A stretch of 63,911 nt of DNA, filler included, from Collodictyon triciliatum (Eukaryota), in NCBI GenBank assembly GCA_043381765.1. It is 7 parts of 7 records of this genome, joined end to end, with 100 filler letters (N's around TTAATTAATTAA, not from the genome) between each part and the next. Parts side by side here need not be neighbours in the genome. Positions count along the whole stretch, not along the records: positions 1 to 11,319 come from JBHJMP010002431.1; 6 more parts are not named here. One strand, given 5' to 3'. Made by a program: the position numbers and the translations under genes. Position 1 is the stretch's first letter. Every line of letters starts with the position of its first letter. This document shows positions 940 to 62,477 of this stretch, piece by piece. The notes beneath the pieces were generated by a model, which saw only the letters and a list, made by a program, of their open reading frames with translations, had not been told where the DNA came from and made no database searches.

Positions 940-3900
940 ATGATGAGTGCCCGAGCCGATCCAACCCGCAAGCCACGTCTCAGCTTCATGCAGGTCTGCC
1001 TTCTGCTGCTTGTCTTTGCCAGCCTGACGAGTCTGCATCTCTTCTACACATACGACCGCTACATGGCTCTCCAGGATCAGCCGCTTTGCGACCCGAGCGC
1101 AGAGGAGGCCGAGATGCATCATCTTGAGTGGCTCAACGAGTTCGGCTCGGTCCACCCGGACTTCTCCTTCATCCGCATTCCGCGGTCCAATGCGGCTCTG
1201 CTTGAGAGGCTTTTCCACCCGTTTGCCTCCTACTCTCTGAGCGACCTTGAGCGCAACATCACACGCGACTCAAACTGCGGCTGGCACCCAAACATCAATC
1301 TCAACGAGTTCTTTGGCCCTTTGCAGAGCCAAAAGAAAGAGCTGCAGCTGCAAGAGGCGCGTCGAAAAGCAGCCGAGCAGATTGCGGTGGAGCAGAAACA
1401 AAAGGATTTGGAGCTGCAAACAAAGCAGGAGCAGGCGTTTCTTACACGTCTGCAAAAGTTTTACCCCAGACGCGAATCATGCGTGTGGCCGTGCGAACGC
1501 CGCAAGGAAACGGTTTTTTCGTTTGAGCCGCACGAAAAGTGTCTGCCGCGAATGGGATGTCTCTACTCGCAGTATGTGCTGGTGATTCCATCCTTTGAGA
1601 AACTGATTCTGCAAAACTATACGGTCGAGGCGCAGTGCGCCACACTTGATGACGGCCGCGTCGTGGCAAAGTGTCTCTTGCCCATCCCCACAGACTGTAT
1701 CGACTACTGCTGGAATGAATGGCACGTTACGCTTTTCGCAGGGATTGCAGACACGCAAGGCTCCGTCACACAGTCACCCAGCGGCTCGCCCACACCCACG
1801 TACATCTCCAGCCCGAGCCCCACCCAAGTCGTCGACCAGGAGCAGAACTCCATCCTCAACTCTCTTCTTAACAGCCTTCTCATGCAGAACGATAGCTCCA
1901 TCAACACCACTCAGATCCAGCTCTCCTTCAACCAGTACCTCATCAAGGCAAACAAGACCGAAAAGCTTCGCCAGGCCGTAAAGGGCCCCGAGGCACTCAG
2001 TCGTCTGGAGAATAAGACACCTGTCAGTCATGGGAAGCATGAAAAGCGCCAGTTGGATGCGCAGGGGGGAGTGGAGGAGGATGCGAAAGGTACAATAATC
2101 GTCCATAGTGTTTTTTTTCTCGACATTTTTTCGATTTTTTCGATTTTTTCGATGAGGGTTTGTCCTAATCTAGAGGACATAGATACTGTGAAATTATATG
2201 TCAACTAACCTTTCATATCATCATCTCTTTTTTCATAACCATCATCGTCAATAAATATGTTTGTAAATATTTGTCATCATTTTTAGAAATAAAAGTATGA
2301 AAGATTCCGCCTACAAAATTAATATAATACACACTCCTTCCTTTTCATAAATCAATATCCCCTCTTATTTTCCTTTTGATGGGTTTGTGATTTGCAGACG
2401 CATTTTGTTTTAGACAAAGAAATCAATTTATACATTAAATTAATACCTATATCAGAATCATGTCTTTATCTTAATATCATCGTTTAGAAGAAGGAAAGCG
2501 CAAATCGAAGCGAGATATGGACGACCCACACAAAAGAAGGAAACGAGATGCTGCTGTGAAACTCTTGATTCAAAACTACTTCAACGGGCCGGAAAAATCG
2601 TCGAGAATCGACAAAAGATCCAAGGACGACCTGGATGCTTTGAAACTATCAAACTTGAGTCTGCCTCTCATCCGACATTATGCAGAGCTGCTCAACGAGT
2701 TGCAATCAAACAGCCCAGCCAAAGCACCGAACAAAGAAGGCGACCTTGTTCCTTCTTCATCGCCATTTCTCAAGGAAAACAACTTCAAGTTTGTTGTGCC
2801 AGACTCTTGGCAATCCAAGGACACCCATTTTTACGACCTCAACCTGATGCCTAGCCGCCCCTTCCGCGTGGCCGAAATCCTCCCACATCACAACAAAGGC
2901 TACATCCAAGTGATTGGCTACTACCTGCCAAACATCGACCGGCCGGACAAATGCAACCAACTCTTTTGTATCTGGGAGCATCCGAACGGATACATCGAGC
3001 ACACAGCCGCAGTCCACGGAGATGTTTCGGTAACCTTCTGCCCAATGCCCAGCGCCAACATTGACGAAAGCTCGCTGGCTCTGCAAGGAATAGCAAAGAA
3101 CGACGATGCGAAGCATTCCAAAAACACACCGCGCGTAATCGACACGAAATCCGGCGTCAACGACCTGATACGGACACACCATCTCCTCCGCTTGACATAC
3201 GACAACGAAATCATCAGCGAGCCATTCCCTTACTACGAAGCCCCAAAGTTTGGCGCGGTGCACCCAAAGGTCTTTATGAGCCTGTGCGTGATAGTGAAAA
3301 AGGAAGGGTTCAATCTGCTGGAGTGGATCGAGTACCACCGCTTGATGGGCTACGACCGGTTTATTCTGTACGACAACAACCCTGTGGACGAGCCGGACCT
3401 TGTGATGGAGAAAATCCTGCAGCTGTACTCGTCCATCATCATCCGCAAGAAGTGGAACCACGTCCACGCACAGACGGAGGCGCTCACCGACTGCATCCGC
3501 CGATACGGCGACACGAGTCAGTGGATGTCGTTCATCGACGTGGACGAGTTTATGGTGCCGTCGCCAAAGTACCGGACCATCCGAAACCTGCTCAAGAAAG
3601 GCGGGCCTCTGTCGAAGCACACGTACCTGCGAAGCTACTGGACCACCTTCGGGCCGTGCGGAAACATGACGAAGCAGCCCGGGCAGCTTGTGATGGAGAT
3701 GTGCCTCAACACCACAAAGTCCACGTCCAACTCGCCAAAGTCCACCTTCATGCCGCACCTGGCCATGTCGATCCAAGGATACGGACCACACTACATTCGC
3801 ATGTGGAAGGAGCAAGGCAGCTTCCCGAGATCCAGAAGCGAGGTCAGCATCGGGTACTTTTCGGTCTACCACTACCGGTACCGCACTTGGGAGGAGTTTG

Positions 3901-4019
3901 TGACGCGCCGCAGAGGCCCCACGGCCGGGCGTGTCCTTGTCTGGGACGATGCGCGCTTCATGGAGGAATGGGCAAAGGGCATCCTCTACAGCCAGCCGCT
4001 CCCCAAGGAGAAGAACCAC
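940..4019 (+). CDS. Glycosyltransferase family 92 (DUF23)-like type II membrane protein; exons 940-2089 and 2488->4019, 3' end lost in N gap
   Basis: N-terminal signal-anchor (QVCLLLLVFASLTSLHLFY). GT..AG intron 2090-2487 joins the two long ORFs in phase 1. C-terminal motifs LLEWIEYHRLMGYDRFILYDN and WMSFIDVDEF (DxD) plus HYRYR are typical of GT92/GT-A. Confidence 0.8.
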
Positions 4020-4993
4020 NNNNNNNNNNNNNNNNNNNNNNNNNNNNNNNNNNNNNNNNNNNNNNNNNNNNNNNNNNNNNNNNNNNNNNNNNNNNNNNNN
4101 NNNNNNNNNNNNNNNNNNNNNNNNNNNNNNNNNNNNNNNNNNNNNNNNNNNNNNNNNNNNNNNNNNNNNNNNNNNNNNNNNNNNNNNNNNNNNNNNNNNN
4201 NNNNNNNNNNNNNNNNNNNNNNNNNNNNNNNNNNNNNNNNNNNNNNNNNNNNNNNNNNNNNNNNNNNNNNNNNNNNNNNNNNNNNNNNNNNNNNNNNNNN
4301 NNNNNNNNNNNNNNNNNNNNNNNNNNNNNNNNNNNNNNNNNNNNNNNNNNNNNNNNNNNNNNNNNNNNNNNNNNNNNNNNNNNNNNNNNNNNNNNNNNNN
4401 NNNNNNNNNNNNNNNNNNNNNNNNNNNNNNNNNNNNNNNNNNNNNNNNNNNNNNNNNNNNNNNNNNNNNNNNNNNNNNNNNNNNNNNNNNNNNNNNNNNN
4501 NNNNNNNNNNNNNNNNNNNNNNNNNNNNNNNNNNNNNNNNNNNNNNNNNNNNNNNNNNNNNNNNNNNNNNNNNNNNNNNNNNNNNNNNNNNNNNNNNNNN
4601 NNNNNNNNNNNNNNNNNNNNNNNNNNNNNNNNNNNNNNNNNNNNNNNTTTCCCCATGTTCACTGCACAGCATCAACCCGGAAGCTACTTTCCTTTCTTTC
4701 CTTCAAACCCTTAATATTTTTTTTTAGCCGATTGTTGCATACACAGCAATAAACCAAATAAAAGAGAGAAAAGAGGGGAAGCAGGTCTTTTTCTACTCAG
4801 CATCTTGGTCTCTAACTATCATCGCCTGACTCTGCCGCCGTCTCTATCCTTTCGTTGATCAGAGTCGAGCTTTCCTTGCAAGAGAAACCCGCCCAGAAAA
4901 CCTCCAAAGCACACACGCACACACTCACTCGCCTTCGAACGAAGACAAAGAAGGGGCCATTAAAGCGCGTCATTAAAAAAAAAAAAATCTGGG

Positions 4994-7900
4994 ATGGCTG
5001 GTTCTGACTCGCAAGAGCGGCTCGAGAAGCAGCTCAAGGACATCGTAGACTCCTTGCAGCATACAAGCATAGAAGGGCGCCATGATTCGACAGTGCAGGA
5101 ATCCTTGAGGAAGCTTGCTCAGTTGATTCCCCTTTGCTCCGGCCACATTGCGGCTGCGCCTCGCATCCCAAGCCTGTTGCTTCTTCACAGTGCGATATGT
5201 CTGCTCCGCTGGCTGGGTGGAGGTGCCTTGAGTAAGGGCAGCTCTATTGTGGCAATCGCTCGCATGCTCAAAGTCCTATTTTCGAGGCTCTCGACAAGCA
5301 GGGTTGACCCCATTGCCAAACATTACGCAGCTATGATTGTGCAAGCGAGCATCCGGCTGTGTCACCCATGGGAGTCCCTTCTAGTCAATCTTAGGCTCCA
5401 GTCGATTGCAGTTTCCTTTAAGGTGATTGATGGACAGAACATTGTCGAGCAGAACGAAGATATGGCACTCGCGGGGCTGTTCTGTGAGTGGTATAGTAAG
5501 AACCAAAAGGAACCGGGATTGTCCTTGTCATATGAATATGGCCTCTTCTTCTCGATCTTGGTGCGCACAAGAGGTTTTCGTGCAGCATCTCTGTACTTGA
5601 CCTCGTTGGGCCAGGAGCACAGAGGTAGTTCTCTTCTCAGCTTCTCTGTTTTGGATGCCCTAGCTTCAATGTTAAAGGGCGATTCCTTTTCAAATACTCA
5701 TACTCATACCCAAATTTCTTCTGGGAAGCACGATGCTATAATGGTATTACTCTTGTTGGTGGCTACCAATCACCTGTGGAGCACTGACCCAAGCTTTCAC
5801 AAAGCCCTCAATTTGCTTGTCCAGGAGTTCAAATCAGACCTTTTGCAATACAAAAATGAATTTCTCAGTGAGAGGGAACTTTTGAATTGGATTTATCAAA
5901 GATCTCCAGCAGACTTTGCCTCGATACCAAGGTTACTAGGCGAAGCATTTTCTTCTTGCTTCGGAGATGGTGGACCATCATCTGTCAATCGCATCATTCA
6001 AGACGGAGACGAAGGGCATACCCCAATTTTTCCCATGATTTATCAAGAATATACAAATATTTTAATTTCAGGCATACTTTCAAAAGATCGGTCATATTGG
6101 GTGCCCATCCGTGGTTCCTTTCAATGCCATCGAAGTAACTCTTCATGTGAACTATGGGAGGCGTGTGAATTCTTTCTGAATGAAGACAAGATGTCTCTTT
6201 TTATTACAGGACCGAGCGGAATAGGTAAAACATCATGTCTAGAGCACGCCTTTAGATTATACTGCATTACTTTCAAAAAAAAGAAGATATTACCGATTCT
6301 ATGCTCTTTCGATCAACTGTTGAAGGTGACGGATATATCAATTTTTGCGACCAACTATTTCAAAATTAGTAGCTCACCTGTGGTGAAAAACTTTGAAGCA
6401 TTTCTCGCTGACTCAGATTTCATGGTTGTGTTCTTTTCTCATGTATTTGATGCAAAACAATATCTGCAGATACCTTTCATACAAGAAAAGCTCTGCCATA
6501 TGCGCACCAAACTGATATTCGCTTCCCATATATTTACCGATGATTATTTGGCAGATAAGGAAAACAGTAGAAACTCGGCTTTAGATTACCAAAGCTATGC
6601 ACTATTCAAAATATTTGACTGGGAAGATAACCAGTTGGAGAAATCATTCATTTATGAGTTCGCAGGGATTGAAGCAAAAACATATTTAGAGTTTTCTGAT
6701 GTCACAAGATTTTTGCATCTACACACAGAATTGACTTCACAAATGCGTCTCCCTTTATTTACCATCCGATTATGGCAAACAATACATACATTTTATAAAT
6801 CACCCTATTCATTTGTGGATGAATACCCTGCAGCAACCAATTCATCCCAGTTTTTTAGTTACTTTGACTTTATTTGTTGGAAGTACAAAAGTATGCACAA
6901 AGGAGTGACAAATCGATGTAAATTAACTACAATTCGCATTCATAAAAAAAAAACAATAATTTAAACGAACACTAGATTTCATCTTTCATCCTGACTAATT
7001 CTTATTTTTAAATGGTTTATCGATAGAAACCAAAAACTCTTTATCTTATGCTTTACTTCTTTCTCTTTTCATTCTTATTTTAACCAACTTTTTTTGTTTT
7101 GCATTCTTAGATTTGCTGGAAAGTAGTTTTCCTAGGAGATATGATACCAAGCAATACGAGTCATTCAAAGATAAACTAAAGGACTTTTCCATAACCTTGA
7201 TTGGAACCAGTATTACTATCAGACATAACATCTCAGAGGCTAAAAAATCCTTTAGAGAACTGAAGATGAAAAAGATCATTCTGCAACTCAATAGGCATCT
7301 TTCCTACATGAATCTCTATGAGCTTTCTAAAACTTTCTCAAGAGACTCTGAAATTACGGATATTCTTTTAAAATTAATTTCGCGTTGTAAGAATGATGAG
7401 AAAATGCATTTTGTCGTGTCCAATTGTATGACTACTCTAAACTATCTTGGATTTCGTTTTCTTAACATGGACATGAGCAATGCTACTCTAAAAAATGTTG
7501 ACCTTAGATGCAGTGTCCTTGAAAACGTCAGTTTTGAGGCTTCGCATCTTGAAAAAATTGATTTTAGCCATTCTCAAATCAAATCATGCAAATTTGACAA
7601 CAGCTCGATGAAGGATGTGCGATTTGGATCTTCAATTCAACGAAGAGATCACCTGGAGCCTATAATTAAGGTTTGTGCTCTGAAAAGAGATGACCATTCT
7701 TCATGGATTATTTCGAGTGGAGAAGACAAATGCTTGAAAATCTATGATGCTACCCAAAATATGAAACTTCTTCGATCCATATCCATGAAATCATCTGTGC
7801 GTGCAGTCATTATTTGGGAAAACAGTGTTCAAAAACAACATTTTCTTTGTGGAATGCATGATGGCAGGCTTGAATTGATTGATTTAGATACTTTCCTTGC

Positions 7901-9941
7901 TATATATTCGATCCAAACCCAACACCGTTGCATCAATACCATCGCACTTTTGCCTAGGGAGAAGGAAGGGGATTGTGCAATCTCTGGAGGAAGCGATGGA
8001 ATTATCAGAATATGGAGCGTAGCTAGTGGTGTATTGATATCTGCTATTGATATAGGAGTGCTATATATTTCTCAAATATGTAGCTTTAGAAATGAAGATA
8101 ACAGAGTGTGCTTGGCGGTGAGTTGTCAAGACACTATCGTTCACATGGTCGATTTTGAAAATGGACACCATCTTGCTCAAATTGAAGGCCAATCGATGAC
8201 AACAAAGAGTCTGTGCTGCGCTCATATACCTGGTTATTCTTGGGCCGTCATCGCTGGGCTGTGGAATAATACTATTGTTGTGTGGCATGCGCGCTCGATT
8301 CAAGAAACGAAATATCTGACTGGGCATCTGGACTTGGTCACTGGATTGGTACCATTTATGGGTAGAGATGGGCTAATGTACTTGGCCTCATGCAGTCGTG
8401 ATAAGTCTATCAGAATTTGGAACCTTGCATCGGGGTCGATAGAGAAAAGTTTTTATACTCAACACTCGGATGTATTGTGTATAGACTATCTTGAAGATAA
8501 TCAAGGAGACTCATTCATTGTATCAGGAGGCACAGATAGAGCTGTTTGTCTGTGGAAAATTTCTGATATATGGGAAGAAAGACAAAGGGATTATGAAAAA
8601 GAAGCCTCGTATATAACTGCATCGACTGTAGTTCATAAAAGCGAAACTAGTGTATTGATTGCATTTGCAGATGAGTTTAAAGGCATCTTTCTTCAAGAAA
8701 TCTCCCTCTCAATGGAATCGGGAAAGGTAGCGAGAGATAGATGTTTGATGAAAAAATCCATCGGCGCACTCGACAAGAAGGTTGTTGGTATTTTAGCTAA
8801 GCCCGGCGGTCAGGAGGCACATTTCTTATATGCTTTGGATGTCGCTGGCAATTTGCACATTTTCAACACAAACCGTAAAGATCAACGAAATTCTAAACAG
8901 GCCAAGTTTACGGGGAGTACCTACTTCATTGTTCCTGGGGAATCGAATGCGGTGTGGGTTGTTGCGACGGATATCCAACACAGAATCACAATTTATGATG
9001 CTGATTCACATGAGATTGTGGAAAGAATTTATGGAAATTCTCACAAAGTAACCGCTGTGTGTGTCCTTGAAACCCCTAGAAGTTCAACCGCGCTTCTCGT
9101 TGGTTCTTATTTGGGAGAAATCACAATATGGGAAAAAGGATGTCGCACACCCTTAGCGCGTTTGTGTGACTCTTACGATGCAATCGTTTATTTGTGTATC
9201 GTATCGCTCCCTACCGGAGACCGTGCCATTGTCGCGCAAAGTTGTGACGATACTATCAGAGTCTGGAGTTTGGATGACTGGTCCGTCAAGTTTAGATACC
9301 AACTATCGATGCTTCTGTACACCCAAGAAGGAAACGTACTTATGATACAAGACAAAGAACATAAGGAAAGAGCAAGTTTAGTGTTCTCATTTACAAACTT
9401 GGGCGATGCTTTTGCATTATTTGGAAGGAATGCTGTATTCCAAGATAGAGATTCTGTTGTTATCGGCTGCTTGCCTCAAGCGCAAATCCATGCCACTTTT
9501 TCCAATGCAAGGGGGTTGGATTGGTTTCAGACAATGACTATTTTCAACAAAGGAGGACTTTGCCGACCAGAAACCATCGATGATGAGTTTTGTAGATACT
9601 GTTTGACCCAATCTCCTTCAATTATGCAAGCGCTTGTAATGTCCCGATTTTTTGGCTCAGCTCGGTGTTTGCCCATGTCAACTTCGAGATGGATTGAGTG
9701 GCTGGGCCGGGCATTTGATATAGAAACGCTGGCTAAACTAGCGAAACTTGGAAACCGCGAGGCTGTGGACAAGATAAAGTTTATAGTCGATCGAAGATTG
9801 CCACCGTTCGATAGCCTTTATCAAAAGGCTGCGCTGGCCTTGGCACAGATATTTAAAAATGGATGGGGCACCGAAGTTAATCCATCACAATCTTTTGCCT
9901 ACTGTGCAAAAGCTATTCGAGGAAACTTGGAGACAGAGTAG
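4994..9941 (+). CDS. NLR-like STAND (NACHT-like) NTPase with pentapeptide repeats, WD40 repeats and a C-terminal SEL1-like repeat; exons 4994-6917 and 7111-9941 (~1584 aa)
   Basis: Walker A FITGPSGIGKT (6209-6232). Phase-1 GT..AG intron 6918-7110 fuses the 656-aa and 942-aa ORFs. Pentapeptide run DMSNA-TLKNV-DLRCS-VLENV-SFEAS-HLEKI-DFSHS-QIKSC-KFDNS. WD40 motifs SGGSDGIIRIWS, GH..ASCSRDKSIRIWN, SGGTDRAVCLWK. LAQIFKNGWGTEVNPSQSFAYCAKA is SEL1-like. Confidence 0.8.
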
Positions 9942-10386
9942 GATACAAAATAAAAGAAAGGAGACCAAAAGAATTCGCATTTTATGCATTTGAAAGCTTT
10001 CATGTTCGAAAAATGGTGGGGAACTTCTCGATTAGAGAAAGCTATGTTGATTCGGACGGTATTGTCTTCTTATTTATGAATGCTGATATATTGTACATTA
10101 TACATCAGTTTTGTTGTTGAGTTGCTGCTTTTTCTTTCTTTTCTTTTTTTCATTTCTGTTTGGATTGATTCAGGAATTGCGTCTTGTCGCACTCCTAGTG
10201 CAAAAATTAGGTAATAAGATTTTAAGATGAGGTACATAAAAGTGGCGACATTAAAGAAAAAAATATGGTATAAATTGTGATACATCGATACATGAGGCTG
10301 GTGAAAGAACGTCGTTTTTTTTCTTGATATCACCTGTTGATTCAGAGAGAAACTTGATGCTTGGTGACGAAGCAGATGCTCGTAGG

Positions 10387-10897
10387 CTATGCAAACCAAG
10401 GAGGTAATGGTTTGAACGAAAGCACAAGGGCAAGAAATGCAAAGCCGAGTCCAAAGAACGCTGCTGTCTGTTCTTCGATGTCCGTCCCGGTTGAGCGGAA
10501 AAGCGCACCCACTAATGACCCTATTGTTAAAAAAAGACACCAGTGAATGTGCGTGCATGGCAAGGATATAATATTATATGAGTGGGTATTCAATATGTTT
10601 TTTCGTATGTATATTATCCAGTAACTCAAGACTCCGCCACGGAATTATCTCTACCAAAAAAAGTGTGGTGGCAGAGAAACATATGGTCTTTGTAAGAGAG
10701 AATGCAATATAAATATGATAACCTCCAACAACTCCGTAAAGGAAGCCTGATAGAGCGCCAACGAATAAAGTAGCGAGTGGAAACAAGTATGGGTACGGCG
10801 CAACAATCCTCGTGGACAAAAAAATGCCAATCAAGAAGTAAACTCCTGTTATTTGATTTGAATTTTCATTTATTAGTTCCTGTGAAGAAATGTCCAT
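10387..10897 (-). pseudogene. Possible disrupted multi-pass membrane protein gene
   Basis: Two overlapping hydrophobic ORFs in different frames (10574-10897 and 10387-10629); no clear splice junction links them and the family is not recognised. Confidence 0.25.
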
Positions 10898-11319: not shown

Positions 11320-11419
11320 NNNNNNNNNNNNNNNNNNNNNNNNNNNNNNNNNNNNNNNNNNNNTTAATTAATTAANNNNNNNNNNNNNNNNNNNNNNNNN
11401 NNNNNNNNNNNNNNNNNNN
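11320..11419. other. Artificial contig spacer (N44-TTAATTAATTAA-N44)
   Basis: All-frame stop linker at 11364-11375. Identical linkers at 22784, 34200, 45627, 59505 and 62221. Confidence 0.97.
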
Positions 11420-15729: not shown

Positions 15730-16721
15730 TATTATGTATTCCAGTATCAGTAATTTTCGCTGCAATGAGCCCGCCAAGCGAAAGCGCTTCGTTTTCTCGT
15801 ACTTTCGGCGAATAGCAACACAAATGTGGAATTAAGCGTGTGGCCTTGTGGTCTGTTCCAAATACAGACAAAGACTTTTGCTGTGGCTTTTTTCGCGGGA
15901 AACAGAAGAGCCTGTTTTGATTGAATTCTTTGAATTGTTTTTTCAAAAGAAAACGTTAATATTTCTAAATGATTTTTTTTTTCCTCTTGTTTTCATAAAA
16001 AAATTCGAAATCAAAAATCATGACGTAAGAACATTTTTTTTTTTAATGTTTAAAACAATCAGTTTGATGCACATTTCTCGAAAACTATTTTTTTTTCCTT
16101 TTTTTTCTTGATGAAAATTCGAATTGAATTGGATTGAATTTAATTGAAACAAATTTCGGGCAAACACAAAAGAAACAAAAAGCTTTTCAACAAATAAAAA
16201 AAAGCACCATAATTCACGAAACAAAGGGGGGAAAAAAAAAAAGATTATAATTGAGAATTCAACAAAAAGCGTGACCATGTCAACACACCATTTTTGATTT
16301 TCTTTTGTGTTTCAGCCACAAAATATCCACTGAATTTCAATAATGAGTTAATTTTTTAAATTTATACTCGAAAAGATAAAAAAAAAAAAGGTATATAAAT
16401 ATTTACAAAGCACCAAGAGGAATAGGGCACGAAGAAATCTCCCTCCGCACTATTTAAAGCTAGATACTCAATGCCGAGCCAACAGAAACCACTTGACATC
16501 CCCCACACCAAACCGCCCACTCGCACACAATGCCCGCCATACAACAGTCCGAACAACCATTTCTCCCCGTTTTCGAGGCACGATGAATGGAGAGAAAAAC
16601 CATCACGACCCACAAATAGATCAAAGATCACTCGCAACCTCCTTTTCCTTCCTCCCCTCCCACACCTTCCCCAACCAGCCAAGGGGACATAGAAATAGAC
16701 TTGAGCGCAGCACCGCCTTGC

Positions 16722-16757
<36 letters not shown>

Positions 16758-16969
16758 TACACAACGGGCGATCAAACCCAAGAACAAGAGCCCCAACAAA
16801 GCCTGAGTCAGCGCTGGCGAACCTCCCCCCCCCTTTTATTCCCACCAATAACCGATCACCCAAGACAAGACAAGACGCACGCCGCCACAAAGAGAAAGAG
16901 AGGCGAAGACTCCCGCACAACCACCACCACCACCACCACCGACCCCTCACCGCCCTTCCTCATGGCCAG

Positions 16970-19285
16970 ATGCCTCAGCGCCGCCACACCGCCCTGACCG
17001 CGGGGCTGCTCGCCCTGCTGCTGCTCGCCTGCACCGCCACCACCGCGCTGGTAGCGGCGGCCGAGACCCAGTCGCCAACGCCCTCGCTGACCGAATCGGA
17101 GTCGGAGTCGCAATCCAGATCCAAGTCGGCCACGGAGCCCGTGGAGACGCCGCCGGAGCCCAACACGCGCACCGCCTCCAGAACGCCGCAGCCGCAGCCC
17201 CAGACGCAGACGCAGACGCGGTCGCAGCCGCAGCCGCAGTCGCCGGTGGTGCCGTCCGATGCGCGCAACACGCCGTCGGCCACGGTCTCGCAGGACCCGC
17301 AGAACGTCCGCCGCGACGCCGTCTCGATCCTCGTGGGCGTGGGCATCCACACCTCGGCCTACGGCAGCGTCAACATCACGTGCGCACGCAGCGGCTGCAC
17401 CGACGGCGAGGCGGAGGTCTCGTACGAGTTCCACAACATCCCCGCAGGCAACCACTCCTTCAACATCTACGAGTACGGCAACATCGCCGACGGCGGCGCC
17501 GCCACCGGCCGCTACTACCTGACCGCCCCGCCCCTGCGCGACTGCAACCCCGTCCCCAAGCGCGACTCCCGCGCCGGCGATCTTGGGAACGTCTTCGTCC
17601 CGGAGGGCGCCACCGTCGTCAGAGACACCTTCAAAAAGTACGGTATCTTCCTCTCGGGCGACCGCTCCATCATCGGCCGCGGCATCGGCCTGGACGTGGA
17701 GCCCTGCGACCCCACCTCGGACGGCAAGGACCGCACCAACGTAGTCGTGGGCGGCATCGGCATTGCGCAGCCGCCAGAGGGCTTCCGCTCGTCCGCCTCG
17801 TCCGGCGCAGCCCCGTCGTCCGTCAAGGGCGGCGCATGCACGCTCTCGGCCATCGGCAGCTCGGGCCTGACGGGCTCTGCCGCGTTCCGCCTGGTCGGCG
17901 TGAAGGAAACCCTGGAGCTGACGGTCGACCTGGCCGCCCCGGCCCCGGCCTTCTACTACGCCCAGATCTACACATATGGCGACCTGCGCGACGCAGCCAC
18001 CGGATCCACGCTCGGCCCCGTCAACAACAACAACATTGGCAGCCGTGCAGTCCTCACCCGCGACGAAGCCGCCTCCGCCCCGGGCGCCGAGATCTACAAG
18101 CTGGCAGACAACTACACAAACATCGACCTATCCGGCTCCAAGACCATCGTCGGCCGTGCCCTGGGTATCTACATCTACGATGCTGAGACAAACAAGTTTG
18201 TCATCCGAGCCGCCTGCCCCATCGCACTCTCTGGCCCCGTTCCCGACAGGGTCTGCCAGAACCCCTCCGCCGCAAACTTCAACCAGGCCTCGCCCTGCAT
18301 CATGGCCGCAAAGCTGGCCAGCAAGGACACCACCACCGTCATCGCCATCGAGGACGGCCCTGGCTTCACCGTGCCCCCAGGCTCCCTCAAGGTCGACGAG
18401 CTCTTCATCGAGGTCTACGAGGTCGACCAAGAGTTCGAACCCCCAACCGTGAGTTCTCTCCTCTCCTCTCCTCTCCTCTCCTCTCCTCTCCTCTCCTCTC
18501 ATACATCCTCTCCTCCTCTATGATATGATGACACCACCTTCTCGCTATATGTGCTCTATTGGTTTATTTCCCACCTTTTTCCTCACACAATTACATTTAC
18601 CCAGGTTGGTAAATTCAGTGCCATCGACATCACTTCCAGCATCGACTTCCAGCCCCCAGGTGACCACTTCGTCGCAAACAAGTTGCCCACCGTCTCGTTC
18701 CCCGTGGTGGCCACCAAGGGTTTCGACCTTGTCGGCCTCATCTCCAAGGATGGCGTCGTCTGGGAGCTGCTCCCTGGTCTGAAGTACGACTCGGTCAATG
18801 GCCTCACCGGCTCCGTGCCTCACTTCTCGTACGTGGCATCTGGCCAATCCAAGAAGCAGGAGAAGAAGGATGACAACAACGACGTTGCCATCGGTGTCGG
18901 CGTGGGTGTTGGTGTCGGAGGCGCGGCAATCATCGGAGCTGCCAGTTTCCTCTACTACAAGAGTAATGTTACATTTTGACCTACCTACCTCCCTTCTCTT
19001 TTTATTGAATTTTTTTTATGATCATCATCAACATTATAATTATTTTATTCCTTAACAAAAGAAAGAATGATTCATGGTGTGTGCATACATGTTTTGATTA
19101 TTCCCGCTCTATCTCGGCTATCCAATCATTTCCCGAACGAGCCCGCCCAGTTGTGCGAGCGCAGTCGGTTCATATCCCTGACTGACTGTCCTCTGCCTCA
19201 TATAGAAAACAGGCGAGGAGGCTCCTCCGATGAGGATGCGAGCAGCACGCCCCTCACTCCCCAGGAAAAGTACGGCAACTTGTAG
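16970..19285 (+). CDS. Type I membrane protein with signal peptide, S/T/P/Q-rich linker, two Cu/Zn-SOD-like domains, TM helix and short tail; exons 16970-18448, 18605-18962, 19206-19285
   Basis: Signal peptide ALTAGLLALLLLACTATTALVAA. SOD-fold motifs GNHSFNIYEYGN, RAGDLGNV, LSGDRSIIGRGI (domain 1) and QIYTYGDL, LSGSKTIVGRALGIY..RAACPI (domain 2). TM VAIGVGVGVGVGGAAIIGAASFLYY. Both introns GT-AG and phase-compatible. Tail ends YGNL. Confidence 0.82.
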
Positions 19286-20046: not shown

Positions 20047-22839
20047 ACGATGCATGAGAGGGCATTTGTGAAGCGAAAGGCACAGTTTCTTTTGCACGGC
20101 GCGGCCCTCATGGATAGTACGTGCGTGATTTATATTTGCGTGTGCATTCTTTCCTTCAACCACCAGGGTGATATGCAGAGTTGTCGACAAAGAAGCGAAC
20201 AAGTCGAAGCGCATATGCTTCTGGATTTGTCACGTAGACGTCGGCAGTGGGCCGGCATAATATTCTTTGCGATGGAATCAAATTGTCATGGTTTACATAA
20301 AAAAGAAAAAAAGAAAAGGTTAGTTGAATAAAAAAAGACATAAAATAGGAATATTTCAATATTATGGCACAATTCACCGCAATAGATAAACAGGCGAGTA
20401 AATAAATTGTGCATGAACTTTGGTGTTATTCTACTATTCATTTTTATTATTGGGCCACTAATAGGACAAACCTGGTTTTGTACAAATTTTCTAGTGTATC
20501 CAACCAAGTGTGTTTTCTTGCAAAATCGATAATTCCGACATAAACCTTTGGGTGCTCTTCGATTTTTCAAGCATAGGATTGGGGATAGTAACATGACACA
20601 GGTCAGTAGCCAAATATTTTTTTATTTTAATAAATAAGATTCATAGTAAAACGCACTTTGATAGAATTTTATGAACCAAAAAAGTAGTCTGATTGAATTA
20701 AAACATCGCCCCTTTCATTTATGTGTTACTTATTCAATATTAGAAAAAAAAAGAATCACAAGAAATAGGTAAGTTCTAAATTACCAAAATACCCTTCTTC
20801 TATCATCGTCATAGCACTGGAATGTGTCGATTTCGGACGAATTCGACTCCTACATATATATTTACTTCTATATTATTCTCTGGTGAAGACAAACTCTCGA
20901 ATAATATCATATAGTGCTACATGACCTCTCGGATGATGAATCTTGGCGGTGTTTTTCAAAAATATAATTTTTTTTATGACATCGTGAATAAAAGCAAAAG
21001 ACAGGAGTTGAGTTACCCTGGTTGACATATGGCAATCAAAAGGTTGTAGCCTATGAGCCCCCGAGATGATAGAAAGTTCGTATCTTGTGAAATCTAGTTA
21101 TATCATTAGCATGGTGTCTATCTCCAAGTTTCTTTGAACTTCAGGTGTGGCTCTGGTTTGAGTGAACGCGTTGCGCTCTTATGAAATAAAAATGGGTTTA
21201 TTCCATTCTTCATTCGATGCATTGATAATATATGAAAATATTAATATATTCATACCATCTCAACATAAAATTCACGATCTTCGCGAGAAAATCTAATGGG
21301 AAGTTCCTTTGTAATATCTGAGTCCTTCAAAGTCTGTTGAGATGCTGTGAAAATTGAGGTTAGTCTGGATAAAAATTCGTACTGCATTTAATGCTCAATA
21401 TGGTTTATGATTTTCTGATATAAAATTATTAATCTGATGCTAAGCGTTTTTCCCTTAAAATTCGAGTGGATAAATATTACATAAATTAGTGCATCTCTGC
21501 ACTTCATCGTCATTAAGAGGAACATTAGACCCATGGGACGGACTATATAAAAAAAATACACCCATTGCATTTTCTCCTCGTTGATAATCCACAGTGATAT
21601 TATAAAATCCAATAAAAAAATATTCTAAATGTTATTTTTATCTTACATACCGAAAGGGTGATTGGCGAGGAATTCGAGAGACCCCTTTGATTTCGTACTT
21701 CTTCATTTGTGGGGATGGCTGTGTGACAATAGAAATAAAAAAATATAACATTGAAAGTATAAGCAAAAAAAATAAATAATTGAATCATAAAAAAAAAAAG
21801 TCAAAATACCATAAAACGCTTATCAAATCAACGTACTGTAAAAAAAATTTCTCAAATATTATCTCGGCACGTCTTTCTTCATTTCTTGTTTGTGTTTTTT
21901 TTTCCCTTTAAGATAAAAAAGCAACAAACCGCAATGTTCGCCAAAACAACGAGATACGTTTTTCTCCCATACATCATCATAGAGTGAAGACCCATGTACT
22001 ATTTAGTGGCGTATTGAATGTTTTAAACAGTTTCGCAAACCAAAATATTGCTATGATACTATGGAATAGAAAGGGCTTGGAATTGAGGCATCAGAACATC
22101 ACACAGACTTCATAATGTAAAATTCAATATATAGCAGTTATATCATTCATGAGGCCAATTTTAGAAAGATAATTACTCGTGCAAGGAGTGAACTTTTGTT
22201 ATCATGCAAGTAGTGATAGTAGTCGGGCAAAAGTTCCAGCAAGGCATCTTTTTCTTTTTTATCCTTCGATCAATAATCAAAATATATAGTAAGAGCTAAT
22301 TTTTAAATGAGCTAAAAAACTTTAAAAAGTCGATGTTTTTTTTTTTTTTTTTAAAAATGGAAGATAAAGAAGGACCTATGAAATGGTGAGGTGTGAAGTA
22401 AATGTATTAGACATACAATTGTTTTCAAAATAAATCTTGAATTTTCGCTAACATAGGTAAATCTGCCACCCTTCTTCTCAGAAAAACGTTCTCGTATATC
22501 TATAGAGACAATTTTTTTAATAGAAAAAAACCCATATGTTGCATGCAATAATTCATTTAATTATGGCAAAACCTGGTACCCACTTTGTGATAAAAAAAAG
22601 GCAAGCTCACTGTCATATGCAAAATTGAGAATCTTCAACCTTTATCGTGAGAGAAGGACTTGACATATTCCTCAGTCTCAACACCACAGTCTTCTCTTAG
22701 CTGCCTAAATACTCGCATCGCGTATGATTTAAACTTAAANNNNNNNNNNNNNNNNNNNNNNNNNNNNNNNNNNNNNNNNNNNNTTAATTAATTAANNNNN
22801 NNNNNNNNNNNNNNNNNNNNNNNNNNNNNNNNNNNNNNN

Positions 22840-23913: not shown

Positions 23914-24714
23914 AAGATGAGGTCTTGCTTGATTGAAAATTAAATTCCATCGTTTTAGATAATTAGTACAAAAATTACAGGGTTTTACCTTCGGTGATGC
24001 ATTTATTCTGATTCATTAGTGATAGACGTTGATAAAATGAATTTTTTCATAAATCAATCATAAATCTAATTAATTAAATTAATAAATGACCTGATTCGAT
24101 AAAAAGAGAAATTTAACTGACATGATAATCCCCACTATATTGCGCAAAATTGAAGGGAAGAATAAAAACCAATATGAAAATAGAGGAGATCACATTTTCA
24201 AAAAAGAGAAATTAAATAACCAGAGCAGAAATGAAAATATTGATAATAATGCCTAATTCATTAGATACGATATATCATAACATATATATTGATCATTTTT
24301 ATCTTATTTTTCTGTTTGAAAAATATGTGAATATTTATTTTGATAAAATTTCGAATTCATAAACTTAATTTACGTGATAAAGTGTTAGGTGATAACAAAA
24401 CTCAAACATAGCTTTTCTTTAAATATACAGTTTTAGGGCCTTCTAGATGAGCTTCATGTTTTTTGATCGCAGAACGTAAATTTTGATTTTTTCCATTATA
24501 ATGCAGTAAATAACTCAACACGAGCCATTCTATTCAGTATATCATTTTCAAATTTTTCCTTATCGGCTATATAACGTATGTTTATGAAATTCAGATATTC
24601 TATGAGAAATTTCTTCATTATTTCTACATATTTTCATGCCTTATTAATTTAAGATGTCGCACTCATTTTTTTGTCTTTTATTAAATAATTTGACTTGATA
24701 ATATTAGAAACTGG

Positions 24715-27700
24715 ATGTTGTTGACTTTTATTTTTTTCGTCGGTCTAGCGGTAACACATTCATCAGCCCTCGATGCAGTTTCAAGGTCATTTAGAGCAGA
24801 CATATATCAAGAAATTCATCTTTTTAAACACAATTTTTGTAGACCCCACTGCCAATACACAAAAGAGGAATTAAGGACCATGAAAATCGAGGATGCGTTT
24901 CAAGTTTTGATAAGCCTCTATGATGATTTATGTCCCATTACCCCTATTAAAAATAATCAAGAAATCTCAAAAAACCCAACCAATGAAGAAAATTATGAAG
25001 CTTTTAATTTCAGGAACAAAATTTTGCGCCAATATAATTACCAAAGTAAACCTACAATCGATGAACTTGAATTCTACGAGGAATTTAACTTGCAAAGGTC
25101 GAAAAAGCCTGAGTTAAAAGATGATAGTAGCACAGAGACTCAAAATCAATACAACATTCTTGTTCATCTCTATGATTCACTAAATGGTGATAATTGGCTT
25201 GATAAAAATGGATGGAAGGATGAATCTATTTCAATTTGCGATTGGTTCGGGGTGCACTGCAGCGAAAAATGTATGGATGTAGAATACAGAGTAAGTGATC
25301 ATAAAATCAAGACTGTTTTTATTTTTTTAACTGAAAATTTATGCGATAGAATAATACATGCCCAGTGGTTGGATTTTCATTTCCAGGGAATCGTCTCATG
25401 GGAAATATTGGTGATGCTTTTGACATTGTCCAAAAGTTTCCTTTTTTGAAGAAACTTGACTTCAGTAACAATCTACTCCACGGCACTATATCCAACGTTG
25501 AACTCAAAAACTTAGAAGTACTTTACTTGCACATTAACTCGATGACGGGATTTATCCCTGACTTCCAAGGATTGCCCATGATTGAAGATATGGATATTAA
25601 TGGAAATGAATTTGAAGGGTGTATTCCTGATTTTAGCAATCTTACAAACTTGAAAAAAATTTGGATCGGTGACAGTCGGAAACTGACAGGTTATATTGAT
25701 ATTACATTTTCAATTTTCATCACACCAAGTGATTAAAAAAATATTTCAGGTTCTCTTCCAAACTTTTCTGGAATTCCAAGCATTGAAAATATTGGAATAT
25801 TTCACACTGAAATAAATGGTAATGGAATTTCAATTAAAATTTACCAATATACTGCGTAATCTATAAAACCACTCCTATTTTCATTCTATAAAGGAACTAT
25901 ACCCAACTTTGACGGAATAAGATACGTGAATCGATTATCTTTGTTCAGCAATCTAATGATAGGTAAGTTATTTCTTCAGCAAGTTAAATAAAGTTAATTT
26001 CATAAATAAATTAATTTCAAACTGAATGAAACAGGAACAATACCAAATTTCGATAAAACTCCTCTATTGAATTACCTTTCAGTTTCAAATAACAAATTGA
26101 ACGGTACCTATTGATGGTTTATTAAAATATTAATAATCTAATAATCTAATGTTGAAAATTCAAAATGTCCTTTATAATTTGATGAATGTTGTGCAATTGT
26201 CATGTAACCTAGGTGTAATCCCTAACTTCAAAAATTTGAAAAATGCGGCCAAAATATTTCTACATAGCAATGATATTGAAGGTTATTTTCATATTAAATT
26301 TTAATCTATTTCTGAAAAAAATTACTTGATAAAAAAAAGAACTGTTTTTCTTTTATAAAACAAAACCAACCAAAATTATTTAAAATAGGAAGTATTCCAG
26401 ATTTCGAAAGTACCCCCTTAGCCGAAGTGATTGATATAGGAAACAGTAAACTAACAGGTTAATTGGAATATATTTTACATTATTTAGCCGCAAAAACATC
26501 AATAAATGATTACAACTTTATATTTCGAGTGATTACATCTTCTAAAAGAACTCAATCACAAACATAATTGTTCACTTTTAACATATAAATAGGCAAAATA
26601 CCATATTTTTCATCCTTATCAATGCTGAAAATTCTCGACATTTCCCGAAACAACATTAATGGTAAGTATTTTCCTTCTTATACTCAAGAATAAACATATT
26701 AATGTAATTAAAAATAGGAGAAATACCTCGATTTTCAAACCTTACAAATCTGAGATCATTCTCCTGTTACTCAAATTCGATTTTTGGTAATATGCCTGAC
26801 TTCAGTGATTTTCCAAATATCAAAGAAATACATGTATTTAGAAATATGATAAGTGGAACATTTCCTTTTTTCGAATCGAAGACTCTTCAATATTTGGACA
26901 TCAGTGAAAACAAGATATTTGGAAATGTTGATTTGGGCAATTTTGGACCCTCATTTCAATTTATCGACTTATCATGGAATGAAATGAATGGGACAATATC
27001 CGGCTCCATAGAAAATTTATATCAGCTCCGGTCCTTAGTTTTATCACACAACAATATCTCTGGTAGATTTCCAAACGATTTTTGGAATTTACCATATCTT
27101 AATTCTATCGATATTAGAAAAAACCAATTTTCCGGAAATGTGGGCTATTTCTTGAACCCTTCTTTTCCTTCAGGAAACACTGTCTTTCTTTATCAAAATA
27201 TCTTCCTTGATGATAACGAATTGTATGGTGAACTAAATTGGAGAATATTCAAATACTTGCTCAGTATAAAAATTATGAGCGTAAAGAATAATAAAATAAT
27301 AGCTTTAGGAGATTTAAACAGAGCAGTTAGATGGAATTATCTTGACCTTAGCGGTAATCCTATCATCGGTAGTATACCCGAGTCATTTATAAGATTCTCA
27401 AAGCTTAATTATTTAGGGCTGAGCAAAACATCTATGAATCACGGAACTGTTAACTATCTGCCAGAGTTTATGAATTATGCAGCTCCATTCAGATTAGAAG
27501 ACGAATCTAAATTATATTTGTGCCCATCGGTAATTTCTAAGGCAGGTTTAATTGAATTAAAAGTTGATCTGGACCCTGATTACTACGATTATGAGTTTTG
27601 CAAATGTTTGCCGGGGTATTTTGGTTTTGGAAATAATTGTATCCAGTGCCCAAGAGAGTGTGATTGTTTCGATGGTGTATCTTTAAAATACTGTCATGCC

Positions 27701-61981: not shown

Positions 61982-62477
61982 TGATTATTATTTATTTTGA
62001 GTTTGGGCGTACAAGAATCATATATTGATCCAATATCACTGAATTCGTATCCACATCCACATCCACATCCACATCCACATCCACATCCACATCCACATCC
62101 ACATCCACATCCACATCCACATCCACATCCACATCCACATCCACATCCACACATCCACACATCCACACATCCACATNNNNNNNNNNNNNNNNNNNNNNNN
62201 NNNNNNNNNNNNNNNNNNNNTTAATTAATTAANNNNNNNNNNNNNNNNNNNNNNNNNNNNNNNNNNNNNNNNNNNNAAAAGCCCAACCCCCTATATCTTG
62301 CAAAAAGAGAAATTTTAGGGAAAAAAAAAAAAAAAAAAAAGTCAAAAAAAATAAAAAAAAAAAAAAAAAAAAGAATATAGTCAACAACACTATTATTTTT
62401 ATCAAATAGTTCTTAATGAAATAGTCGAGTATTAGTTTAATAGTAATCATGTTGAGTAAAATTTTTAATTTTTGCGG

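What the first reader, a model, noticed from the sequence alone, without database searches (positions are those of the whole stretch)
4994..9941. NLR-like STAND-pentapeptide-WD40-SEL1 protein in a protist, with only one intron
Seen: ~390 aa unassigned helical N-terminus, Walker A GPSGIGKT, a degenerate Walker B region (MVVFFSHVFDA instead of hhhhDGhDE), NCMTTLNYLGFRF then pentapeptide repeats, many WD40s and a terminal SEL1-like motif. It has one intron in ~4.9 kb, while most genes here have many short exons. Knowledge: effector-NACHT-WD40 proteins (Podospora HET-E/NWD) are non-self receptors. From memory, a NACHT-pentapeptide-WD40 layout occurs in Mortierellaceae, ciliates and some intracellular bacteria. 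Inference: a candidate innate-immune or allorecognition receptor with an uncharacterised effector domain, possibly horizontally acquired and possibly hydrolysis-impaired.
Basis: partly seen in the sequence, partly recalled or inferred. Interest (0 to 1): 0.72.

Follow-up and report, generated by a model that had tools for sequence, protein, structure and literature searches.

The report
Divergent NLR-like P-loop, pentapeptide, WD40 gene
This is a real eukaryotic gene for a large receptor-like protein whose sensor half clearly matches bacterial NACHT-pentapeptide-WD40 proteins, while its nucleotide-binding core has changed too much to be placed in any known family.

Summary
The sequence features are there. 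Two long open frames (4994-6917 and 7111-9941) can be joined by a canonical GT..AG intron of 193 nt to give a 1584-aa protein. No read data cover the junction.

Its parts, in order:
- an N-terminus of about 390 aa with no relative found
- a Walker A motif, GPSGIGKT, at aa 406
- about 270 aa that match no family
- two helices and a 12-unit pentapeptide beta-helix (Pfam PF00805 above cut-off)
- one confident 7-bladed WD40 propeller and a degenerate second one
- a helical tail with one sub-threshold Sel1 repeat

The helix-pentapeptide-WD40 module is collinear with bacterial NACHT-pentapeptide-WD40 proteins.

The NTPase core fails every NACHT test I could run. It has no Pfam NACHT hit and no D[GAS]hDE signature. 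Its profile score against the family equals that of shuffled sequence, whereas true members score 85-269.

Exon 1 has no homologue among 1.84 billion representative proteins. I found no evidence of recent gene transfer, and a tree could not place the protein.

Verdict: an NLR-architecture protein with an eroded or replaced nucleotide-binding core. It is a new variant of a known kind. An immune role is inferred only.

The parts
4994..6917 (+). Exon 1: aa 1-641 plus the first base of codon 642
   Evidence: Open frame 4964-6964 with first ATG at 4994. Chance of being open 6e-17. No homologue in 1.84 billion representatives.
4994..6163 (+). N-terminal domain of about 390 aa with no family, rich in Leu and Ser, probably helical
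   Evidence: No Pfam family (best E 0.048). Best Atlas score 0.77. All-helix in a low-confidence model. No clear membrane helix. No BLASTP match to 27 N-termini of relatives.
6209..6232 (+). Walker A (P-loop) GPSGIGKT, aa 406-413
   Evidence: Regex. Sub-threshold P-loop hits AAA_16 and nSTAND3. hhalign of the P-loop region against relatives gives z 8-15 over shuffles.
6419..6454 (+). Candidate Walker B strand FMVVFFSHVFDA, aa 476-487. His483 lies under the Walker B Asp of the relatives
   Evidence: MAFFT and hhalign placement in low-confidence columns. It lies 70-81 aa after Walker A, against 75-103 aa in relatives. No D[GAS]hDE.
6509..6535 (+). Candidate sensor-1 strand KLIFASHIF, aa 506-514. 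ASH lies under the TSR of relatives
   Evidence: MAFFT alignment with NACHT-type modules. Not supported statistically.
6918..7110 (+). Predicted intron: 193 nt, GTAAAT...T-rich tract...TTCTTAG, phase 1
   Evidence: Sequence. GC 24% against 41-43% in the exons. Stops in all three frames. No read or contig crosses it.
7111..9941 (+). Exon 2: aa 642-1584 and the TAG stop
   Evidence: Open frame 6999-9941. Chance of being open 1.8e-28. A contig of run X1 covers 8480-9908 without gaps.
7302..7457 (+). Last helices of the NTPase module (aa 706-757), ending in the motif VVSNCMTTLNYLG
   Evidence: hhalign z 7.8-9.0 against NACHT-type relatives, at the matching end of the template. BLASTP alignments start here. 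pLDDT 87-89 for the last two helices. The A1 consensus reads GYxxGNxxNLL.
7452..7631 (+). Pentapeptide-repeat beta-helix, 12 units (aa 756-815)
   Evidence: PF00805 27 bits > 20.2; Pentapeptide_4 E 1.9e-7. Run of 12 reached in 0 of 1000 shuffles. pLDDT 87-95.
7662..8558 (+). WD40 propeller 1, seven blades (P0002 aa 184-482)
   Evidence: PF00400 66.9 bits. 28 strands at pLDDT 75-93. Foldseek finds WD40 propellers.
8823..9383 (+). Degenerate second beta-propeller region (P0002 aa 571-757). It follows a stretch modelled poorly, aa 490-602
   Evidence: 17 strands, pLDDT 58-87 only for aa 603-731. Weak WD40 hits: PF00400 at 17.7 bits, below the cut-off of 27.
9522..9935 (+). C-terminal helical region with one Sel1-like repeat at 9825-9923
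   Evidence: Helices at pLDDT 39-54. Sel1 E 0.0039, 18.2 bits, below the cut-off of 30.7. No BLASTP match to the relatives in hand.

Best explanation
One spliced gene encodes a 1584-aa protein with NLR or STAND architecture.

Shown:
- The order of domains.
- The intact Walker A motif.
- Homology of the last NTPase-module helices, the pentapeptide beta-helix and the WD40 propellers to bacterial NACHT-pentapeptide-WD40 proteins.
- The absence of the NACHT Walker B signature.
- The lack of any detectable similarity across the NTPase core.

Inferred:
- The P-loop domain is a strongly diverged descendant of a STAND nucleotide-binding oligomerisation module.
- The propellers, perhaps with the pentapeptide helix, hold the protein inactive and sense a ligand.
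- Ligand binding lets the nucleotide-bound module oligomerise.
- Oligomerisation brings the N-terminal helical domains together as the output.
- The best alignment puts His483 under the Walker B Asp and ASH under the sensor-1 TSR of the relatives. Hydrolysis is therefore probably slow or lost, and nucleotide would serve as a cofactor or a one-way switch.
- A role in conflict, immunity or self/non-self recognition is the likeliest by analogy. It is untested.
For: Gene model:
- Open frames of 641 and 942 codons, with chance 6e-17 and 1.8e-28.
- A GT..AG intron in phase, 24% GC, with stops in all frames.
- The second frame has no Met until P0002 aa 51.
- The P-loop (exon 1) and the pre-pentapeptide helices (exon 2) match the same relatives in the same order. 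The spacing is 352 aa, against 376-523 aa in relatives.

Domains:
- Walker A.
- PF00805 and PF00400 above their cut-offs.
- Model of exon 2 with a confident beta-helix and propeller.

Homology of the C-terminal module:
- BLASTP is collinear from P0002 aa 77 with P0026 (E 3e-12) and from aa 68 with P0013.
- The hhalign tail scores 30.1 (z 9.0). Left-out members score 22-66, and the two weakest of them (P0013 22.1, P0015 24.1) score below the query.
- The same layout is confirmed by Pfam in the L001 ORF.

NTPase class (a lead only):
- All ten best named Atlas clusters for P0001 are NACHT or related, at score 0.92.
- The motifs are in the same order in MAFFT.

Likely functional:
- Against a contig of a close relative, 8 of 20 listed differences are synonymous, there are no indels or stops, and pN/pS is 0.42.
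Against: - No Pfam NACHT, NB-ARC or other STAND model matches beyond the P-loop, even at E 10.
- There is no D[GAS]hDE.
- The 274 aa from after the P-loop to the last helices score 13.3 against the family profile. That equals shuffled sequence (z -0.5), while left-out true members score 85-269.
- The only structural model of this region is unusable, with mean pLDDT 37. The fold is therefore untested.
- Atlas scores of 0.9 or more also occur for 4-10 in 100 shuffled proteins, and only 150 of 256 features are shared.
- The splice has no read support.
- The excess of synonymous changes is only borderline, binomial P 0.054.
- Nothing here bears on immunity. No genome was held for counting paralogues.
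Confidence: 0.55

Rival explanations
1. A chimera. Exon 1 (an orphan helical domain plus an unrelated P-loop NTPase) was fused, through the intron, to the 3' part of a STAND-pentapeptide-WD40 gene. The NTPase is then not a diverged NACHT-type module but a replacement of other origin.
For: All detectable homology apart from the generic P-loop lies in exon 2. Exon 1 has no hit in 1.84 billion representatives. The core scores like shuffled sequence. The boundary of homology lies near the intron.
Against: The hhalign match to relatives starts about 35 aa before the P-loop: query 5-65 on template 2-65, probability 83.7. The distance from P-loop to pentapeptide (352 aa) is close to that of relatives, 376-523 aa. 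Candidate Walker B and sensor-1 strands fall at family-like spacings. Atlas features point to NACHT.
Confidence: 0.15
2. The architecture is the same, but the protein is a housekeeping scaffold or regulator, as some eukaryotic P-loop-WD40 proteins are, and not an immune or allorecognition receptor.
For: There is no paralogue in the 64-kb window. The WD40 region has no DNA-level repeat identity. The N-terminus has no known death or effector domain. pN/pS of 0.42 is compatible with purifying selection.
Against: No homologue of exon 1 exists in 15 billion clustered proteins. That argues against a conserved housekeeping function. 12 of the 20 listed differences from a relative about 98.5% identical change the amino acid. 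The closest layouts belong to protein classes described as conflict systems (passages read).
Confidence: 0.25
3. There are two separate genes, or a decaying gene. Either the intron is not removed, or the locus is losing function.
For: No read crosses the junction. 53 of 190 GT..AG pairs would also keep the frame. The catalytic motifs and second propeller are degenerate. GC3 is 0.38-0.45, against 0.62-0.77 in three neighbouring ORFs.
Against: Both frames are fully open. Frame 2 has no Met before aa 51, and without exon 1 it would begin inside the module shared with relatives. There are no indels or stops in 1429 nt of a relative's contig. An LRR ORF in the window has even lower GC3, 0.30.
Confidence: 0.1
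4. The whole gene was recently transferred from a bacterium or endosymbiont.
For: The best matches to the pentapeptide-WD40 module are mostly bacterial, including a Mycoavidus genome. The gene's codon composition differs from three neighbouring ORFs.
Against: Identity to any hit is only 20-36% and driven by WD40. Scans of genome contigs and viral contigs with the window's own proteins found nothing. The gene has an intron. In the tree the query has a branch of 4.67 and no supported placement. An old transfer of the module cannot be excluded.
Confidence: 0.05

Closest known systems
Bacterial NACHT-pentapeptide-WD40 proteins. Examples are the 1727-aa ORF in the Mycoavidus cysteinexigens genome locus L001, the 1696-aa ORF in L005, P0026/P0032 from metagenomes, and Nostoc P0015
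   Same: The same order: N-terminal region, P-loop NTPase, helices ending in a GN/SN..L motif, 9-13 pentapeptide units, then WD40 propellers. The window's helix-pentapeptide-WD40 part aligns collinearly. Its tail scores 30.1 against the family profile; left-out members score 22-66, and two of them (P0013, P0015) score lower than the query.
   Different: The relatives pass Pfam NACHT (L001: 50.1 bits) and carry hhhDG[YF]DE. The window protein has neither. Its core is undetectable by profile. Its WD40 repeats are far more degenerate: 66.9 bits in 4 stretches, against 516 bits in 13 stretches in L001. It has an intron, an orphan N-terminus and a Sel1-like tail.
Cyanobacterial STAND-WD40 proteins with Walker A GMGGIGKT and Walker B LDN.E. 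Sources name some NB-ARC, some NACHT and some only WD40. Examples: P0008, P0021, P0045
   Same: P-loop NTPase, a GYxxGNxxNLL helix, a short pentapeptide-like stretch of about 8 units, then WD40.
   Different: The window's tail matches this set poorly (z 1.4), against z 7.8-9.0 for the NACHT-type sets. It has 12 units rather than 8. The core is not similar.
Fungal NACHT-WD40 non-self receptors (HET-E/NWD type). Their properties are recalled; PMC1805685 was seen only in a search listing with its abstract
   Same: Three-part layout: effector, NTPase, WD40. Fungal NACHT-WD40 proteins (P0003, P0014) are among the WD40 hits.
   Different: No HET or other known effector domain. No DNA-level repeat identity among the WD units. 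A pentapeptide linker is present. No NACHT signature.
Apaf-1 (NB-ARC with two WD40 propellers)
   Same: An NTPase followed by a double propeller. Apaf-1 chains 3shf and 5juy_A are Foldseek hits at ranks 31-32, E 7.6e-20.
   Different: Those hits are generic WD40 matches with TM-scores of 0.23-0.28. No NB-ARC Pfam match. No CARD. Apaf-1 has no pentapeptide helix (recalled).

Membership tests
NACHT (Pfam PF05729; NACHT clade of STAND NTPases) | Walker A GxxxxGK[ST] | tested here: met
   GPSGIGKT at aa 406-413.
NACHT (Pfam PF05729; NACHT clade of STAND NTPases) | The D[GAS]hDE signature in Walker B, as defined in passages of bioRxiv 10.1101/2022.07.19.500537 read | tested here: not met
   The regex finds none in 1584 aa. 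The aligned position reads F-S-H-V-F-D-A. The only hhhh[DE] within 200 aa of Walker A is AFLAD at 469-473, followed by S-D-F-M.
NACHT (Pfam PF05729; NACHT clade of STAND NTPases) | A match to the family HMM at its gathering score | tested here: not met
   NACHT is not listed even at E up to 10. Only P-loop-local hits appear, all below cut-off (AAA_16, nSTAND3, AAA_22).
NACHT (Pfam PF05729; NACHT clade of STAND NTPases) | Profile similarity of the core (Walker B, sensor 1, helical and winged-helix parts) to NACHT-pentapeptide-WD40 members | tested here: not met
   hhalign score 13.3, z -0.5 against 40 shuffles. Left-out true members score 85-269.
STAND NTPases in general | A winged-helix extension C-terminal to the P-loop core | not testable with these tools
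   The single-sequence AlphaFold2 model has mean pLDDT 37.2. No homologues exist to build an alignment.
STAND / NLR architecture | A central P-loop NTPase between an N-terminal domain and C-terminal repeats that form a superstructure | tested here: met
   A 390-aa N-terminus, the P-loop at aa 406, and pentapeptide plus WD40 from aa 756.
STAND / NLR architecture | Collinear homology of the post-NTPase helices, linker and repeats with proteins that carry a recognised STAND module | tested here: met
   BLASTP from P0002 aa 68-77 onward. Tail z 7.8-9.0. The relatives carry Pfam NACHT.
Pentapeptide repeats (PF00805) | A match above the gathering score, and a period-5 pattern | tested here: met
   27 bits > 20.2. 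12 units; 0 of 1000 shuffles reach 12.
WD40 (PF00400) | A match above the gathering score, and a propeller fold | tested here: met
   66.9 bits > 27. A 7-bladed propeller at pLDDT 75-93.
Sel1 repeats (PF08238) | A match above the gathering score | tested here: inconclusive
   One repeat, E 0.0039, 18.2 bits, below the cut-off of 30.7. The helices there have pLDDT 39-54.
HET-E/NWD-type fungal allorecognition NLRs | Highly similar tandem WD40 units and a HET-type N-terminal domain (features recalled) | tested here: not met
   There are no tandem DNA repeats in 7400-9941; only 21-nt motif matches. No N-terminal Pfam family.

The most novel reading that the evidence does not exclude
This is a pseudo-NTPase NLR. 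It descends from the bacterial NACHT-pentapeptide-WD40 lineage, resident in a eukaryote. It has kept the P-loop and the sensor module but lost the Walker B Asp, the sensor-1 Arg and all recognisable core sequence. Activation would then depend on nucleotide binding alone, or on none, and the output would be a helical effector domain found nowhere else in 15 billion proteins.
Probability: 0.2. Interest if true: 0.6.

Novelty: new variant of a known kind. Interest (0 to 1): 0.4.

Why it matters
NLR-like STAND proteins are central immune and cell-death switches in animals, plants, fungi and bacteria. How far they can diverge and still work is an open question. This gene pairs a sensor module clearly shared with bacterial NACHT-pentapeptide-WD40 proteins with a nucleotide-binding core that no current profile recognises and that lacks the catalytic signature. 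If it functions, it gives a natural test of whether such receptors need hydrolysis. It also shows that domain-based surveys of NLRs in microbial eukaryotes can miss members. As it stands, it is one lineage-restricted gene with an inferred role.

Tried and rejected
Read evidence:
- No RNA holder is listed for 4994-9941.
- Contigs of three coded runs of unknown kind were laid on 4700-10400. None covers 4891-8328, so the splice could not be checked.

Homologue searches that found nothing:
- phmmer of exon 1 against 1.84 billion representatives: 0 hits.
- Word-index search of exon 1 among longer proteins: 0 hits among 7994 candidates.
- P0002 aa 1-200: 0 hits among 518 candidates.
- Genome contigs with P0002: none.
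- Viral contigs with P0001: none.

Family and structure look-ups:
- NCBIfam gave only chance-level hits.
- PADLOC gave nothing for exon 1 and one weak hit, HEAT-ARM_XIII, on a WD40 stretch.
- phmmer against PDB sequences gave designed PPR proteins at E 2e-5 with 0 passing stretches. I read these as composition artefacts.
- The Atlas search with the N-terminus gave a best score of 0.77.
- The single-sequence AlphaFold2 model of exon 1 has mean pLDDT 37.2. I did not send it to a fold search.
- I did not fold the NTPase with an alignment of bacterial relatives. The fold would have come from the relatives, which makes the test circular.
- Foldseek on the exon 2 model returned only generic WD40 propellers.

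Other:
- The tree of the tail, pentapeptide and first propeller (22 rows) left the query unplaced on a branch of 4.67.
- BLASTP of the N- and C-terminal ends against the relatives in hand gave nothing below E 0.05.
- Rfam on the whole window: 0 matches.
- No whole genome is held, so paralogues could not be counted.
- Supplements were not opened. Table S1 and Figure 2 of the bacterial NACHT preprint, which I could not see, may say which NACHT clade holds the pentapeptide-propeller layouts.
- I made no search to test whether this exact gene is in print.

Full report
**Gene model**

Between two runs of N (ending at 4647 and starting at 11320) lie two long open frames on the + strand. One runs 4964-6964 and the other 6999-9941. 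The first ATG of the first frame is at 4994. From their base composition, frames of 641 and 942 codons would stay open by chance with probability 6e-17 and 1.8e-28.

The first frame closes at 6962-6964 and the second opens only at 6999. A simple frameshift therefore cannot join them. A canonical intron can:
- The donor GTAAAT starts at 6918. A T-rich tract and TTCTTAG end the intron at 7110.
- The intron is 193 nt, has 24% GC against 41-43% in the exons, and carries stops in all three frames.
- The splice is phase 1 and makes a Tyr codon. The product is 1584 aa without a stop.

Being in frame is weak evidence by itself. Of the 190 GT..AG pairs around the gap, 53 also give an open product. The 6918/7110 pair has the best consensus.

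The better argument for one gene is homology. The P-loop lies in exon 1 and the helices before the pentapeptide repeats lie in exon 2. Both match the same relatives, in the same order and at a similar distance: 352 aa here, 376-523 aa in relatives. The second frame also has no Met before its residue 51.

No read data test the splice. No RNA holder was listed, and the laid contigs do not cover 4891-8328.

One contig of run X1 (kind unknown, guessed RNA) covers 8480-9908 without gaps and with 21 differences. Another X1 contig skips 139 nt at 10194-10332 with CT..AC ends. That is a minus-strand GT..AG intron in the neighbouring gene. It suggests the run holds spliced RNA of a close relative.

Of the 20 differences listed by place, 8 are synonymous and 12 are not. 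pN/pS is 0.42. The excess of synonymous changes is borderline, with binomial P 0.054.

**Anatomy of the protein**

- **aa 1-390.** No Pfam family (best E 0.048). No Atlas neighbour (best 0.77). No clear membrane helix. No similarity to the N-termini of 27 relatives. The region is all-helical only in a model of mean pLDDT 37.
- **aa 406-413.** Walker A, GPSGIGKT.
- **aa 432-705.** No family assigned.
- **aa 706-757.** Helices ending in VVSNCMTTLNYLG.
- **aa 756-815.** Twelve pentapeptide units. PF00805 scores 27 bits against a cut-off of 20.2. In 0 of 1000 shuffles did a run reach 12 units.
- **First propeller.** Seven blades, modelled with confidence (pLDDT 75-93), just after a confident beta-helix (pLDDT 87-95). 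That model used a 28-row alignment.
- **Then** about 110 poorly modelled residues and a degenerate second propeller. pLDDT is 58-87 for P0002 aa 603-731, and only weak WD40 hits are found there.
- **C-terminal tail.** Helical, with one Sel1-like repeat below Pfam's cut-off: E 0.0039, 18.2 bits against 30.7.
- **WD40 overall.** PF00400 scores 66.9 bits in 4 stretches. The WD40 region has no DNA-level tandem repeats.

**Relatives**

Exon 1 has none:
- 0 hits in 1,835,955,588 representative proteins
- 0 among longer proteins in the word index
- 0 in viral contigs

A search with P0002 aa 95-560 gave 62 hits at 20-36% identity. Most are bacterial WD40 proteins, and many carry precomputed NACHT, AAA_16 or nSTAND1 families.
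- 31 of the 62 have a Walker A motif.
- 19 of the 62 have a Walker A followed 250-600 aa later by a period-5 hydrophobic run of at least 7 units.
- Such runs occur in 21 of the 62 hits, against a mean of 5.4 when the same proteins are shuffled.

BLASTP of P0002 against P0026 and P0013 is collinear from the helix before the repeats, through the pentapeptide units and into the propellers.

A scan of bacterial genomes with P0026 found 17 loci. Two matched P0026 over nearly its full length:
- **L001**, from a Mycoavidus cysteinexigens genome. Its 1727-aa ORF has Pfam NACHT (50.1 bits), Pentapeptide (46.2 bits) and WD40 (516 bits, 13 stretches), in that order.
- **L005**, from a gammaproteobacterial genome. 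Its 1696-aa ORF has a Walker A at aa 80 and 13 pentapeptide units, with PF00805 at 58.1 bits.

Mycoavidus cysteinexigens is an endohyphal bacterium, and the same abstract mentions a Mortierella elongata endosymbiont (abstract of PMC5877345). I did not test the ciliate or Mortierellaceae parts of that recollection.

**Is the NTPase a NACHT or STAND module?**

I cut the module, from 40 aa before Walker A to the first pentapeptide unit, out of the spliced protein and out of the relatives. I compared it by hhalign with three sets of relatives, and later with a six-member NACHT-pentapeptide-WD40 set. Each comparison used 40 shuffles as control.

| Part of the module | Result |
|---|---|
| P-loop part | z 8-15 over shuffles |
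| Last 52 aa | z 7.8-9.0 against the NACHT-type sets, 4.8 against all sets together, 1.4 against the GMGGIGKT set. The match falls at the corresponding end of the template |
| The 274 aa between | score 13.1-13.9, z -0.3 to -0.7. Indistinguishable from shuffled sequence |

As a positive control, I left each member of the six-protein set out in turn (P0026 and P0032 were left out together) and scored it against the rest. Their middle parts score 85-269, at probability 97-99.9%. Their tails score 22-66, against 30.1 for the query.

So the tail is within the range of true members, above the two weakest of them, while the core is not recognisable at all.

Pfam lists no NACHT or NB-ARC match even at E 10. 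The passages I read from the bacterial NACHT preprint define the clade by a D[GAS]hDE signature in Walker B. No such string occurs in the 1584 aa.

MAFFT and low-stringency hhalign place FMVVFFSHVFDA under the hhhhDG[YF]DE of the relatives. His483 falls under the Mg-binding Asp and Asp486 under the second Asp. They place KLIFASH under hhhTSR. These are low-confidence columns. AFLAD473-S-D475, just upstream, is an alternative Walker B.

The Atlas feature search returned only NACHT-type clusters, at score 0.92 with 150 of 256 features shared. By that tool's own statistics this is a lead and not a test.

My reading is that a STAND origin is probable from context, that NACHT membership fails the tests that could be run, and that the fold remains untested.

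**Origin**

Nothing supports a recent transfer:
- There is no close relative anywhere.
- The gene has an intron.
- The tree of the tail, pentapeptide and first propeller (22 rows) leaves the query unplaced on a branch of 4.67 changes per column.

GC3 is 0.45 in exon 1 and 0.38 in exon 2, against 0.62-0.77 in three neighbouring ORFs. An LRR ORF in the window has 0.30, and GC3 falls from 0.63 to 0.36 along exon 1. I therefore do not treat composition as foreign. An ancient bacterial origin of the module remains possible. The preprint's passages argue for repeated transfers of NACHT genes to eukaryotes.

**How it most likely works**

These steps are inferred, not shown. The propellers and the pentapeptide helix sense a ligand and keep the protein closed. 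The P-loop module binds nucleotide and drives oligomerisation. The orphan helical N-terminus is the output. If the alignment of the catalytic motifs is right, hydrolysis is weak or absent.

Rivals:
- a chimera with a non-STAND P-loop (0.15)
- a housekeeping scaffold rather than a conflict protein (0.25)
- two genes, or a decaying gene (0.1)
- recent transfer (0.05)

**Comparison and verdict**

The closest known kind is the bacterial NACHT-pentapeptide-WD40 protein. The window's gene differs from it in several ways:
- an unrecognisable core without the signature
- much more degenerate WD40 units
- an intron
- an orphan N-terminus
- a Sel1-like tail

It is not like HET-E-type fungal genes in repeat structure. 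Its match to Apaf-1 is only the generic double propeller.

I rate it a new variant of a known kind, of moderate interest.

**Limits**
- No genome is held for this window.
- Figures and supplements of the cited preprint were not seen.

Noticed in passing
window 11320-11419, 22740-22839, 34156-34255, 45583-45682, 59461-59560, 62177-62276: Pairs of 44-N runs 12 nt apart. The first four pairs are spaced about 11.42 kb apart. There are also larger N runs at 4020-4647 (628 nt) and 37028-37940 (913 nt), and a run of 63 N at 57005. The regular spacing looks like masking and not like assembly gaps.
   Followed up: no
window, ORFs at 712-2208, 2475-4020, 16352-18523, 46436-49375 versus 4994-9938 and 26708-28003: There are two classes of codon composition. 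GC3 is 0.62-0.77 in the GT92, SOD_Cu, phosphatase and 712-2208 ORFs. It is 0.30-0.45 in the NLR-like gene and an LRR ORF.
   Followed up: partly
window 24694-28003, + strand: An LRR gene in several frames. LRRNT_2 is weak (E 0.0006). LRR_4 and LRR_8 are above their cut-offs in ORFs 25350-25736 and 26708-28003. This is a second candidate receptor-type gene, about 15 kb downstream.
   Followed up: partly
window 10194-10332, - strand: A contig of run X1 skips 139 nt with CT..AC ends. That is a GT..AG intron of the neighbouring minus-strand gene. One of that gene's ORFs has a weak 5TM-5TMR_LYT match, E 0.0031.
   Followed up: partly
window 46436-49375, - strand: A single 979-aa open frame with a calcineurin-like phosphoesterase domain and EF-hands. 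It shows that long uninterrupted coding frames are not unusual in this window.
   Followed up: no
window 16352-18523, + strand: A 723-aa open frame, 62% GC, with a Cu/Zn superoxide dismutase domain at aa 338-448. Several overlapping long frames on both strands there reflect the high GC.
   Followed up: no
L005 1-9006: A gammaproteobacterial genome carries two large WD40 ORFs in tandem: one of at least 1296 aa, open at the 5' end of the locus, and one of 1696 aa. The second has a Walker A at aa 80 and 13 pentapeptide units.
   Followed up: partly
window 9949-9954: AATAAA lies 8 nt after the TAG stop of the gene. Reading it as a poly(A) signal is from recall and untested for this organism.
   Followed up: no
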